A DNA stretch of 64,000 nucleotides, from assembly GCF_009914755.1 (NCBI RefSeq), contig NC_060927.1; one strand, given 5' to 3'. The first letter of the stretch is position 1. Each line of letters begins with the position of its first letter. The notes under the pieces are model-generated. The model ran no database searches. It was given only the letters and a program-made list of their open reading frames with translations, and was not told the origin of the DNA. This DNA is from the human T2T-CHM13v2.0 reference genome, Homo sapiens. This document shows positions 17,923 to 61,823 of this stretch, piece by piece. Both the position numbers and the translations under genes were made by a program.

Positions 17923-19114
17923 TATACAATCTTGAAGATCCTTTTATATTTTTCTGTTTGTTTCATTTCAATGCCAAAGGATTCAAAGCAACATCTTTAC
18001 ACTTATTAGCTATAAAAACAAAGCTTTAAAGATAGGAAACAACGTTGTATGGGTAAATTGCTTTTTTGATAAGTTTACATGGTGCTTTTGCCTGGTTATA
18101 GGAGACTAAAAACATTTTATGTAATTAACAAATTATATAAATTTGAATAGGCATGAGCAAAGAATATAACCCCAGTTTTATTTTTATCATTTCAAATGCA
18201 AGGTCAACACAAACACTGTTAATTTGCAGCCTTTCTGTGGAGTGCAAATGCTAAAATTGGGCCCCTATTTTTAAAACTTGAGGCAAGGGATAGAAAGCAT
18301 TTTGAATACAGGAAAGGATATGCAGGATGACTGAAACCACAGAGATTCAAAGCCAGCCACACCACAAGTAGCATTTTGCAGACCCAGGGAATTATGCTTA
18401 ACAATCCTAAAAAAACTATTTAATCTCTTTGAACACAAAATAAGAATGTCTGTAAATAGTTTTAAATATAGTAAAGCTTTCTAAAGGTGAGAATCCAATG
18501 AAATGAGTATTTAATGCTAAGATGTAAGAAACTGCATCTGGGGAGTAAGATGACTTCTATTTACTCCTTTTTCTACTGACTTGAGCTCTTTAGAATTTTT
18601 TAAAAAACAATGTAGAATTAAATAGCGGACAATAGTATATTTAAAATAAGACCAAAAGATTAATTGCACATTTAATTAGAACCAGGCCCCAGAAAAATTG
18701 TAAGAGATAGAAATCTGTGATTTTGAAAGAACACCAAAATTCCTGAATAAATTTGTGTACAGATCACAAATGAGCCATACTCTTAGAGGGCTTCACACAA
18801 TTTAATTTTTCAATGATCAATGAAATTTCAGTGAATAAATTATTTTGAAAATTGATGTGCTTCACTGAAAAATTAGGGATGATATTGAACCTTCTATATA
18901 AATACAAGTTTATAAAAGTGTATAAAAAAGAGGATTTTCCACTTAGCTTCAATTCCTATTGTTTTATAAAGCACTTGTTTTCACTTATTTTCTGAGGCAC
19001 ATATTAACTGTCTGATAGAACTAAGTGTTTATGAGAAATACAATATAATTCGTATTCATCTTTAGCTTTACACTGAATAGAAAAGCCACTAAGTCATTTT
19101 AAAAATAAGAGTTG

Positions 19115-19190
19115 TGGCTACTCTGTCTATGGAGTAGCCATTCTTTTATTCCTTTACTTTCTTAATAAACTTGCTTTCACTTAAAAAAAA
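19115..19190 (+). mobile_element. Polyadenylated MER41-type LTR R-region fragment (5' part of a chimeric retrotranscript)
   Basis: ctctgtctatggagtagccattcttttattcctttactttcttaataaacttgctttcactt matches the recalled MER41 R segment; AATAAA at 19164-19169; A8 at 19183-19190. Confidence 0.8.
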
Positions 19191-19823
19191 TAGGAACACT
19201 CTTACACTGTTGGTGGGAGTGTAAATTAGTTCAACCGTTGTGGAAGACAGTGTGGCAATTCCTTAAGGATCTAGAACCAGAAATACCATTTGACCCAGCA
19301 ATCCAATTACTGGGTATATACCCAAAGGATTATAAATCATTCTACTATAAAGACACATGCACACGTATGTTTATTGCGGCACTGTTCACAATAGCAAAGA
19401 CTTGGAACCAGCCCAAATGCCTATCAATGATAGACTGGGTAAAGAAAATGTGGCATATATACACCATGGAATACTATGCAGCCATAAAAAAGGATGAGTT
19501 CATGTCCTTGCAGGGACGTGGATGAAGCTGGAAACCATCATTCTCAGCAAACTAACACAAGAACGGAAAACCATTCTCACTCTGTATGTTCTCACTCATA
19601 AGTGGGAGTTGAACAATGAGAACACATGGACACAAGGAGGGGAACATCACACACCAGGGTCTATTGGGGGGTAGGGGCTAGGGGAGGGATAGCATTAGGA
19701 GAAATACCTAATGTAGATGGTGGGTTGATGGGTGCAGCAAACCACCATGGCACATGTATACTTATGTGACAAACCTGCATGTTCTCTGCACATGTATCCC
19801 AGAACTTAAAGTATAATAAAAAT
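19191..19823 (+). mobile_element. L1PA (about PA7/PA8) 3' fragment: ORF2 C-terminus and 3' UTR
   Basis: ORF 19238..19525 is the L1 ORF2 C-terminus (frameshifted); 3' UTR ends cagaacttaaagtataataaaa; TSD aaataagagttg at 19103-19114 and 19824-19835 also encloses the MER41 piece. Confidence 0.93.
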
Positions 19824-20170
19824 AAATAAGAGTTGCATTGCTAGATATCAGAAGTCTTAAAAATGTAAGTAATTCTACTTTTAGATATTTATCACACAGA
19901 ATAAACATGGAGAAGAACAAAGATTTATCTGCAAGGATGTTCATTGAAGCATTATTTGTAATGAAAAATTAGAAGCAGTACAAATACTCTGAAAGAGGGG
20001 ATTTACCAAATAAGTTATGATATAGTAATATGTAGCCATTAAGTATTATGTTGATGAACAACATGAAAACATAGTGACAATGTGTTAGTACCAACAAAAA
20101 GGTTATAATATTGTATGGTCACATTGTTCTCACCCCCAAAAAGGTACACATGTGTTTTGAAAGTAGGTCA

Positions 20171-21487: not shown

Positions 21488-61823
<40,336 letters not shown>

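What the first reader, a model, noticed from the sequence alone, without database searches (positions are those of the whole stretch)
19103..19835. Chimeric retrotranscript: hairpin-headed, polyadenylated MER41 LTR R-region mini-RNA fused to an L1PA 3' end inside one TSD
Seen in sequence: the 12-bp repeat aaataagagttg (19103-19114 and 19824-19835) encloses three parts. First, a 68-nt piece that starts with a perfect 9-bp hairpin (tggctactc-tgtctatg-gagtagcca) and has AATAAA at 19164. Second, an A8 run beginning 13 nt after the hexamer. Third, ~630 nt of L1PA 3' end; the last As of the run coincide with the L1 AAA-TAGGAAC junction (microhomology). Established knowledge: L1 ORF2p template switching makes RNA-L1 chimeras (classically U6-L1), and the 68-nt piece matches my recollection of the MER41 LTR R region up to its poly-A site. 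Inference: MER41 LTRs produced a very short R-only polyadenylated transcript (start site to poly-A site within one LTR) that L1 RNPs captured. That would be an LTR-derived small RNA acting as a SINE-like passenger, a class I do not know to be well described.
Basis: partly seen in the sequence, partly recalled or inferred. Interest (0 to 1): 0.8.

Follow-up and report, generated by a model that had tools for sequence, protein, structure and literature searches.

The report
Retrocopy of a tiny MER41 transcript
A 68-base copy of a very short RNA once made by an ancient retroviral promoter (MER41) sits beside a LINE-1 tail in a PLS1 intron, and it turns out to belong to a family of at least 57 such LINE-1-made copies in the human genome.

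Summary
The TSD, hairpin, AATAAA, A8 run, L1 3' end and AAA(T) microhomology are all present.

The 68-nt piece is the R region of a MER41A-type LTR, running from start site to poly-A site. The predicted family exists. Of 94 independent poly-A-ended R copies examined, 57 begin within a few bases of the R start, 30 run on into U3, and 7 are truncated or cut by an Alu. Of the 57, 29 have a TSD score of 8 or more, against 11 of 450 mismatched controls. There are 271 sites genome-wide at 2 mismatches or fewer.

Cleavage points vary by 0-4 nt, and the extra bases match U5. The RNAs therefore came from real LTRs, not from their copies. The family behaves like small-RNA processed pseudogenes, not like a SINE.

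The one-step "chimeric retrotranscript" reading is not established. The R/A-tail junction is itself an L1 endonuclease site. A sister locus (L062) shows an L1 piece that landed later in such a tail, with its own nested TSD. The window has a candidate nested TSD (A8T against A5TA3T).

My odds are: R-only retrocopy 0.9, later L1 insertion about 0.5, template-switch chimera about 0.4. Primate orthologues would decide. My literature searches found no description of R-only LTR retrocopies.

The parts
19097..19102 (+). L1 endonuclease target, TTTT/AA on the primed strand, read TTTT|AAAA on the + strand
   Evidence: Read. The TSD starts right after the T run.
19103..19114 (+). Upstream copy of the target-site duplication AAATAAGAGTTG. 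It can be read as 14 nt from 19101.
   Evidence: D5: exact 12-nt direct repeat, copies 721 nt apart.
19115..19182 (+). Retrocopy of the whole R region (68 nt) of a MER41A-type LTR, from transcription start to poly-A cleavage site
   Evidence: positions 2-68 are 98.5-99% identical to R inside full LTRs, between U3 (...CATAAAAATGGGCAACCAGCAGCCCTYG) and U5 (TGCACTG...); 57 of 94 poly-A-ended copies start at this same point.
19115..19140 (+). 5' hairpin of R (arms 19115-19123 and 19132-19140, 8-nt loop)
   Evidence: I7.: -16 kcal/mol, z = -4.8; a stem of 7 bp or more is kept in 47 of 52 R-only copies and 25 of 30 LTR-context copies.
19164..19169 (+). AATAAA poly-A signal of R
   Evidence: Cleavage follows 13 nt later. 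Other copies are cleaved 0-4 nt further on.
19183..19190 (+). A8 run. It is the remnant of the poly-A tail of the R RNA. With T19191 it is also the candidate upstream copy of a nested TSD for a later L1 insertion.
   Evidence: Compare AAAAATAAAT at 19818-19827.
19191..19817 (+). 5'-truncated L1 3' end: the last ~139 codons of ORF2 (decayed, frame broken near 19510) plus the 3' UTR
   Evidence: ORF2p residues 1137-1242, E = 5e-62; 40 scored genomic L1 copies match at 90-93% over the full 633 nt; the junction shares AAA(T) with L1.
19818..19823 (+). Short A-rich L1 tail (AAAAAT). Under the two-step reading it is part of the downstream copy of nested TSD A8T (19818-19827).
   Evidence: Read.
19824..19835 (+). 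Downstream copy of the TSD AAATAAGAGTTG
   Evidence: D5.

Best explanation
Core claim (about 0.9). A MER41A-type LTR fired from its own promoter. The promoter has a TATA-like CATAAAAAT about 27 nt upstream of the start. The transcript was cleaved and polyadenylated at the LTR's own AAUAAA only 68 nt downstream. This gave a capped RNA of about 70 nt, with a 5' hairpin and a poly-A tail.

L1 ORF2p then copied that RNA into the genome by target-primed reverse transcription at TTTT/AAAAATAAGAGTTG in a PLS1 intron. This made the TSD. The same thing happened at least 57 times elsewhere, and by extrapolation roughly 150-250 times.

Second step (my lean, about 0.5 for the whole statement; the confidence given is for the whole statement, both steps). 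The junction made by the R end and its A tail (CACTT/AAAAAAAA) is itself an L1 endonuclease site. A 5'-truncated L1 later inserted there, with a short A-rich TSD. That TSD is A8T at 19183-19191 and A5TA3T at 19818-19827. Both pieces therefore now lie inside the first TSD.

Shown: the anatomy, the LTR context, the family, the clustered 5' ends, the TSDs, the variable cleavage sites, and one clear two-step sister locus.

Inferred: Pol II start, cap and polyadenylation of the short RNA; the order of events at this locus.

The element is a fossil. I see no sign of a present function.
For: LTR context. In full LTRs the same 68 nt lie between U3 and U5.

Genome-wide counts.
- The R 3' end followed by six or more A's occurs at 56 exact sites.
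- It occurs at 271 sites with 2 mismatches or fewer. The reversed-pattern control gave 0.
- The R-to-U5 junction of one U5 variant occurs at 883 sites at the same stringency.

5' ends.
- Set A: 36 of 56 start between -10 and +8 of R position 1, 17 of 56 continue into U3, and 3 of 56 start inside R.
- After correcting two alignments that ran into the TSD, 33 of 56 start at 0 to +5. Binomial P = 2e-47 against uniform ends.
- Set B: 21 of 38 start at the R start, 13 of 38 continue into U3, and 4 of 38 are other.

TSDs. A score of 8 or more abutting both ends was found in 29 of 57 R-only copies, against 11 of 450 mismatched pairs.

Cleavage. It varies between CACTT, CACTTT, CACTTTG and CACTTTGC, and the extra bases equal the start of U5, TGCACTG. 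TTTT inside R argues against Pol III.

Two-step lean.
- At L062 the L1 3' UTR piece after R-A15 has its own nested TSD, A9GTAGAAATA. It sits inside the R copy's TSD.
- At L104 a full Alu sits in the tail, with a plausible nested A-rich TSD.
- Law and Burns 2026 report 452 Alu/L1 chimeras, and Alu copies number over a million (my recollection). Co-insertion with poly-A RNAs is therefore rare (PMC13174262, passages).
- The R-A8-L1 junction is unique in the genome at 3 mismatches or fewer.
Against: Against the core claim.
- No RNA data were seen. The short transcript is inferred from its DNA copies only.
- Copies were found through a 3' pattern, so diverged copies and other cleavage variants are under-sampled.
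- 5' ends are only good to about 3 nt.
- Only about half of the copies pass a strict TSD score. Many others show TSDs with indels by eye.
- The name MER41 was not checked against Dfam or Repbase.

Against the two-step part.
- The nested TSD is almost all A, so it proves little.
- It would leave the L1 with a tail of about 1 nt.
- The R copy has 0-1 changes in 67 nt against nine identical LTR copies, and the TSD is intact at 12 of 12. Neither looks older than the L1, whose closest scored relatives are 7-10% different.
- Three composites (window, L116, L155) show a 5'-truncated partner directly after the tail, inside one non-A TSD and without a clear nested TSD.
- Two of the three tail-adjacent Alus are 5'-truncated, which is unusual for plain Alu insertions.
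Confidence: 0.5

Rival explanations
1. One-step chimera. L1 ORF2p began on an L1 RNA at the TTTT/AAAA nick and copied its last ~630 nt. At ...GAGAAA|TAGGAAC it switched template, by A/T microhomology, onto the poly-A tail of an R-only MER41 RNA. It copied that RNA to its capped 5' end. One TSD therefore encloses both parts.
For: - A single exact 12-nt TSD encloses both parts, which share orientation.
- There is 3-4 nt of AAA(T) microhomology at the junction.
- The R part is full length to the same 5' end as 57 solo copies.
- No unambiguous nested TSD is visible.
- The R copy and the TSD are very well preserved.
- L155 (R-A22, Alu lacking 13 nt, A14, inside GGAAATACCTCA/GGAAATGCCTCA) and L116 have the same layout.
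- Alu/L1 chimeras with a poly-A-tailed 5' partner are reported (PMC13174262, passages).
Against: - The A8T / A5TA3T pair can be read as a nested TSD.
- CACTT/AAAA is a consensus L1 nick site.
- L062 shows that later L1 insertion into these tails happens.
- Base rates for true co-insertion are low.
- The junction is a one-off.
- The readable supplementary tables of Law and Burns list neither this locus nor any MER41-LTR/L1 chimera. My hg38 coordinate for the locus was only an estimate.
Confidence: 0.4
2. The 68-nt piece is a randomly 5'-truncated retrocopy of a long LTR-containing transcript (proviral or read-through RNA) that happened to stop at the U3/R border. No R-only RNA ever existed.
For: Longer poly-A-ended copies do exist: 30 of 94 run into U3. 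Four of these (L069, L078, L083, L093) carry homologous internal ERV sequence and a polypurine tract before U3-R-An.
Against: In set A, 33 of 56 ends fall in a 6-nt window, where a uniform spread over U3+R predicts fewer than 1 (P = 2e-47). The hairpin is always included whole, which is the opposite of a reverse-transcriptase stop caused by the hairpin.
Confidence: 0.05
3. Not retroposition at all. The piece is a decayed MER41 LTR remnant whose U3 and U5 were deleted, lying by chance next to an L1 and an A-rich stretch.
For: Deleted LTR fragments are common in the genome (general knowledge).
Against: Both ends are exact. The A run starts at the poly-A site. An L1-type TSD and nick site are present. 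The same structure recurs at 57 loci with unrelated flanks.
Confidence: 0.02

Closest known systems
HERV-W (LTR17/HERV17) processed pseudogenes made by L1
   Same: ERV RNA that starts at R and ends at the R poly-A site, copied by L1, with a poly-A tail, a TT/AAAA site and TSDs. This is described in PMC5537654 (passages). Repbase-based tables place MER41-int in the same HERVW9 group (PMC5753468 and PMC4724089, passages). MER41 also shows internal-U3-R-An ends and an R-U5 start without U3 (L020).
   Different: The template here is only R (68 nt): start site and poly-A site lie in the same LTR, with no U5, genes or U3. The abstract of PMC5537654 calls HERV-W the sole HERV group mobilised by L1. 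The MER41 copies found here do not fit that statement.
U6/L1 and Alu/L1 chimeric insertions (template switch or RNA ligation)
   Same: A small RNA copy lies 5' of a 5'-truncated L1 3' end, in the same orientation, inside one TSD at an L1 nick site (PMC13174262, sections and passages).
   Different: Co-insertion is not shown here and a two-step history fits as well. The 5' partner is a Pol II LTR transcript with its own poly-A tail. I found no LTR R region among the partners in that paper: none in the main text, and only MER41-int in the four readable tables.
Retro-pseudogenes of small RNAs (7SK, snRNAs, Y RNAs) and short mRNA-derived pseudogenes
   Same: Dead-on-arrival L1-made copies of an abundant short RNA. 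Sources are the parent genes, not the copies. RN7SKP25 lies in the same window (hub table). For short mRNA pseudogenes, see PMC2831318 (search listing and start of abstract only).
   Different: The parent 'gene' is a dispersed family of retroviral LTRs. The RNA is defined wholly by the viral promoter and poly-A signal.
SINE-R / SVA (retroposon derived from an HERV-K LTR)
   Same: LTR-derived sequence ending at the LTR poly-A site and spread by L1 (recalled; SVA composition is mentioned in PMC13174262).
   Different: SINE-R carries env-U3-R and became part of a self-propagating composite. The MER41 R copies are R only, and nothing suggests that the copies are themselves sources.

Membership tests
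MER41 LTR (ERV1, HERVW9 group) | Two subfamilies, A and B, differ by a 43-bp segment that carries the STAT1 (GAS) site. MER41A lacks it (PMC7778262, passage). | tested here: met
   Copies of this LTR come in two forms between the same two landmarks. Six copies (L022, L024, L025, L027, L028, L029) have a spacing of 13 nt and no TTCNNNGAA. Three (L049, L060, L088) have 56-58 nt with TTCCNGGAA-type motifs; L077 and L090 are alike. The difference is 43-45 bp. The LTRs nearest the window's R are the short form.
MER41 LTR (ERV1, HERVW9 group) | LTR architecture: TG...CA ends, U3-R-U5, TATA-like box, AATAAA in R | tested here: met
   Natural copies run from TGTCAGAG... to ...CCTTTCCTGTAACA. U3 is about 387-390 nt, R is 68 nt, U5 is about 87 nt. 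CATAAAAAT lies about 27 nt before R, and AATAAA lies at R positions 50-55.
MER41 LTR (ERV1, HERVW9 group) | Significant match to the Dfam/Repbase MER41A-G consensus | not testable with these tools
No Dfam or Repbase library was available.
L1-mediated (TPRT) retrocopy | A poly-A tail at the RNA's 3' end, a 7-20 bp TSD, and a TT/AAAA nick site | tested here: met
   Window: A8 at the poly-A site, a 12-14 nt TSD, and TTTT/AAAA. Family: 29 of 57 copies have a TSD score of 8 or more, against 11 of 450 controls.
Template-switch L1 chimera (U6/L1 type) | Both parts arrived in one event: no TSD of its own around either part, and both present or absent together in orthologues | tested here: inconclusive
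   There is one outer TSD, but also a candidate nested A8T / A5TA3T pair (19183-19191 and 19818-19827). Orthologues could not be examined. L062 is a clear nested, two-step case.
SINE | Copies carry what they need to be transcribed again (an internal promoter), so copies beget copies | tested here: not met
   R-only copies lack U3. R contains TTTT, which is a Pol III stop. The extra bases at variant cleavage sites equal U5 (TG, TGC), so the templates had U5 downstream and were LTRs.
LINE-1 3' end | Encodes the C-terminal part of ORF2p, followed by the L1 3' UTR and an A tail | tested here: met
   ORF2p residues 1137-1242, E = 5e-62; full-length matches to 40 scored genomic L1 copies at 90-93%.

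The most novel reading that the evidence does not exclude
R-only LTR transcripts are an unrecognised class of L1 passenger. They are Pol II 'mini-mRNAs' of about 70 nt, made whenever an LTR's own poly-A site is used right after its own start site. In MER41 they were retroposed more often than the proviral RNA itself. Some of them, possibly including this locus and the R/Alu composites L116 and L155, were joined to L1 or Alu cDNA by template switching. Their fossils would give base-exact start and poly-A sites for extinct retroviruses. They would also show that MER41, not only HERV-W, was mobilised by L1.
Probability: 0.3. Interest if true: 0.65.

Novelty: new variant of a known kind. Interest (0 to 1): 0.5.

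Why it matters
If the family reading holds, four things follow.

1. The U3/R and R/U5 borders of an extinct primate retrovirus are mapped to the base from genomic fossils alone.
2. MER41 LTRs used their promoter-proximal poly-A site, the site that exogenous retroviruses take care to suppress in the 5' LTR. They made an abundant RNA of about 70 nt in the germ line.
3. L1 can mobilise a Pol II transcript this short, and did so over a hundred times.
4. The textbook statement that HERV-W is the only HERV group mobilised by L1 needs qualifying.

For annotation, many short "MER41 fragments" are retrocopies, not decayed LTRs. That matters when MER41 copies are counted as interferon-responsive enhancers, because these copies carry no U3.

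The single locus itself is an inert intronic fossil.

Tried and rejected
- Rfam scan of 18900-20100 at E of 1 or less: four hits, all far below gathering scores, none credible.
- A fuzzy-regex script timed out. I replaced it with BLAST.
- A paper search for a 17-nt stretch of R found 0 papers.
- Buzdin's 2003 chimera paper is not held. I used a 2007 paper of the same group for the template-switch model (PMC2104539, passages).
- Searches for R-only or short polyadenylated LTR transcripts, and for MER41 with 'processed pseudogene', turned up no description of R-only retrocopies. Two of these returned nothing. Of the 14 papers holding MER41 and 'processed pseudogene', I read passages of two.
- Dating R against L1 led nowhere. 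The first distance script was faulty and gave all zeros. The corrected one gave window distance 0 against a median of 3 per 40 nt, but the reference LTRs had been picked for likeness to the window's R, so the comparison is biased.
- The L1 subfamily could not be named without a repeat library.
- I looked for a second copy of the R-A8-L1 junction, which would indicate a propagating composite. There is none.
- Retroviral strong-stop DNA as the source is rejected. Minus-strand strong-stop is R-U5 and plus-strand is U3-R-U5-PBS. Neither is R plus poly-A.
- A Pol III small-RNA gene derived from R is rejected, because of the TTTT inside R and the AATAAA-dependent variable cleavage.
- The 38:18 strand imbalance of the exact sites vanished at 2 mismatches or fewer, 140:131.
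Full report
**1. The observation**

Reading 18900-20100 and the repeat scan confirm each item.
- The 12-mer AAATAAGAGTTG lies at 19103-19114 and 19824-19835.
- The perfect 9-nt inverted repeat lies at 19115-19123 and 19132-19140.
- AATAAA is at 19164-19169, and an A8 run is at 19183-19190, 13 nt after the hexamer.
- L1 sequence follows.

The 68-nt RNA folds into the terminal hairpin at -16 kcal/mol, with z = -4.8 and 0 of 200 shuffles as good.

The upstream TSD copy follows TTTT. On the primed strand the site therefore reads TTTTT/AAAA, the L1 endonuclease consensus.

Translation of 19190-19510 matches human L1 ORF2p residues 1137-1242 of 1275 (8sxt_A, E = 5e-62).

Five related genomic L1 copies read GGAGAAA(T/C)AGGAA where the window reads AAAAAAATAGGAA.

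Rfam finds nothing credible.

**2. What the 68 nt are**

The window's own assembly could be searched. A 76-nt query (R plus A8) gave 1241 first-look candidates, of which 40 were scored.

In the best non-polyadenylated matches the same 68 nt sit inside an LTR. Upstream is ...CATAAAAATGGGCAACCAGCAGCCCTYG, and downstream is TGCACTGTGGACTCGCCCTGAATTC....

Natural copies run from TGTCAGAG to ...CCTTTCCTGTAACA. U3 is about 387-390 nt, R is 68 nt and U5 is about 87 nt. The piece is exactly the block between a TATA-like box (about 27 nt upstream) and the poly-A site. That block is R.

No repeat library was at hand, so I tested the name MER41 indirectly. A review states that MER41A differs from MER41B by a 43-bp deletion that removes the STAT1 site (PMC7778262, passage). 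Copies of this LTR do come in two forms that differ by 43-45 bp at one place, and only the long form carries TTCCNGGAA motifs. The LTRs nearest the window's R are the short form.

Repbase-based tables place MER41-int with LTRs MER41A, B, D, E, F and G in the HERVW9 group, together with HERV-W (PMC5753468 and PMC4724089, passages).

**3. The predicted family exists**

The R 3' end followed directly by six or more A's occurs at the following numbers of sites.

| Pattern | Stringency | Sites |
|---|---|---|
| R 3' end + A6 | exact | 56 |
| R 3' end + A6 | 2 mismatches or fewer | 271 (140 forward, 131 reverse) |
| R-to-U5 junction, one U5 variant | exact | 85 |
| R-to-U5 junction, one U5 variant | 2 mismatches or fewer | 883 |

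The reversed-pattern control gave 0 for the poly-A pattern.

I fetched all 56 exact sites as set A.

I also fetched 39 of the 44 one-mismatch sites listed, as set B. Five of six near-identical chromosome-1 duplicates were left out beforehand. L122 was then dropped as a paralogue of L081, which left 38.

I aligned each copy to a natural LTR copy (L029).

| 5' end class | Set A (n = 56) | Set B (n = 38) |
|---|---|---|
| Near R start (A: -10 to +8; B: 0 to +8) | 36 | 21 |
| Continues into U3 | 17 | 13 |
| Starts inside R | 3 (one cut by an Alu) | 1 (at +11) |
| Cut by an antisense Alu at R positions 33-35 | counted in the row above | 3 |

Together, 57 of 94 copies start at the R start.

In set A, 33 of 56 start at 0 to +5. 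This is after correcting two alignments (L080, L097) that had run a few bases into the TSD. Against ends spread evenly over U3+R, that gives P = 2e-47.

Of the 57 R-only copies, 29 have a TSD score of 8 or more abutting both ends, against 11 of 450 mismatched pairs. Several more show TSDs with indels by eye.

The hairpin is a family feature. A stem of 7 bp or more is kept in 47 of 52 R-only copies and in 25 of 30 LTR-context copies.

**4. How the RNA was made**

Cleavage is not fixed. Besides CACTT+An there are CACTTT, CACTTTG and CACTTTGC followed by An, among other variants (only the first 100 rows were seen).

The extra bases equal the first bases of U5, TGCACTG. This is the micro-heterogeneity expected of AAUAAA-directed cleavage. 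It also shows that the templates had U5 downstream. The templates were LTRs, not R-only copies.

R contains TTTT, which argues against Pol III.

The simplest account is a Pol II transcript that starts at the LTR's own start site and is cleaved at the LTR's own poly-A site 68 nt later. From memory, not from a call: exogenous retroviruses suppress this promoter-proximal site in the 5' LTR, in HIV-1 through U1 snRNP at the major splice donor. A solo LTR has no such donor.

The copies carry no U3. They are dead on arrival, like small-RNA pseudogenes, and not like a SINE.

**5. MER41 RNAs of other lengths were retroposed too**

Four set-A copies (L069, L078, L083, L093) share 210-475 nt of homologous internal sequence. 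It ends in a polypurine tract and is followed by U3-R-An.

L100 starts at -61 and has a 14-nt TSD.

L020 is an R-U5 start with unrelated sequence upstream.

These are the hallmarks given for HERV-W processed pseudogenes (PMC5537654, passage). The abstract of that paper calls HERV-W the sole HERV group mobilised by L1.

**6. Is this locus a one-step chimera?**

The layout fits one: a single TSD, the same orientation, a full-length 5' partner, and microhomology at the junction. But the same layout results from a two-step history.

In the two-step history, an R-An copy inserts first. An L1 then nicks the consensus site CACTT/AAAA at the R/tail junction, and the second TSD is A-rich.

The window shows such a candidate pair. 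It is A8T at 19183-19191 and AAAAATAAAT at 19818-19827, followed by the rest of the first TSD, AAGAGTTG.

A sister locus settles that this happens. In L062 the 127-nt L1 3' UTR piece after R-A15 is flanked by its own A9GTAGAAATA repeat. That repeat is nested inside the R copy's TSD.

L104 has a full Alu in the tail, with a plausible nested A-rich TSD.

On the other side stand L155 and L116. L155 reads R, A22, an Alu lacking 13 nt, then A14, inside GGAAATACCTCA/GGAAATGCCTCA. L116 reads R, tail, then the right half of an Alu. Both have a truncated partner inside one non-A TSD and show no clear nested repeat.

Base rates favour two steps. Law and Burns report 452 Alu/L1 chimeras (PMC13174262, passage), while the genome holds over a million Alus (recalled).

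Preservation favours one step slightly.
- The R copy differs at 0-1 of 67 positions from nine mutually identical LTR copies.
- The TSD is 12 of 12.
- The L1's closest scored relatives are 90-93% identical (40 of 9422 candidates were scored).

My attempt to put this on a firmer footing was biased by how the reference copies were chosen.

The junction is unique in the genome. The composite did not propagate.

I put two-step at about 0.5 and one-step at about 0.4.

**7. Is it known?**

The most complete catalogue of L1 chimeras lists U1, U2, U4, U5, U6, U3, 5S, tRNA, 28S, 7SL, Y, 7SK, Alu and mRNAs (PMC11838501, sections 21 and 22; published as PMC13174262).

'MER41' does not occur in either main text. 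In the four readable supplementary tables it appears only as MER41-int beside a 7SL chimera, and this locus is not listed. Three PDF supplements could not be read, and my hg38 coordinate was only an estimate.

Eight literature searches found no description of R-only LTR retrocopies. Subscription papers are not held. These include the original HERV-W pseudogene papers and Buzdin 2003. Prior description therefore cannot be excluded.

**8. Verdict**

It is a new variant of L1-made processed pseudogenes, with a 68-nt retroviral R transcript as template.
- The locus-level claim of a chimeric retrotranscript stays open.
- 'SINE-like' is not met.
- There is no sign of function in PLS1. The element lies in an intron, in sense orientation, outside all annotated exons in the hub table.

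Noticed in passing
L066 (G000 C1:202863270) and L110 (G000 C17:49939923): Two of the 57 R-only copies are inserted, in opposite orientation, into the R region of resident MER41 LTRs at almost the same spot. The TSDs are AAAGTAAAGG and AAG[A/C]AAGTAAAGGAATA, which is the LTR's own TTCTT/AATAAA stretch. This is far more often than the share of the genome made of MER41 R would predict. Pairing of the R RNA with its own kind of DNA (an R-loop) is one idea. It is untested.
   Followed up: partly
L080 (G000 C4:172125311) and L097 (G000 C12:109039832): These two R-only copies have unrelated flanks but very similar TSDs (TAAGTTCCTAGACTTCT and TAAAGCCCAGACTTCT). Their likeness runs 10 nt upstream of R and 12 nt past it. 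I have no explanation.
   Followed up: partly
L119, L129, L134 (R positions 33-35), L072 (about position 49), L099 (position 17): Antisense Alus have landed repeatedly inside the T-rich middle of R. R is therefore itself a recurrent L1-endonuclease target on the other strand.
   Followed up: no
G000 C1, 120.3-148.7 Mb (six sites; L122): Six near-identical copies of one R-only locus, the same flanks as L081 on C5, lie in the chromosome-1 pericentromeric segmental duplications. Site counts therefore include a few duplicates.
   Followed up: partly
L069, L078, L083, L093: These copies read internal ERV sequence, then a polypurine tract, then U3-R, then a poly-A tail directly at the R end. They are processed-pseudogene-type 3' ends of MER41 proviral RNA, of the kind described in print for HERV-W.
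   Followed up: partly
window 30852-31092: RN7SKP25 (hub table) is a 7SK retro-pseudogene in the same PLS1 gene region. It is another L1-made small-RNA copy about 11 kb downstream.
   Followed up: no
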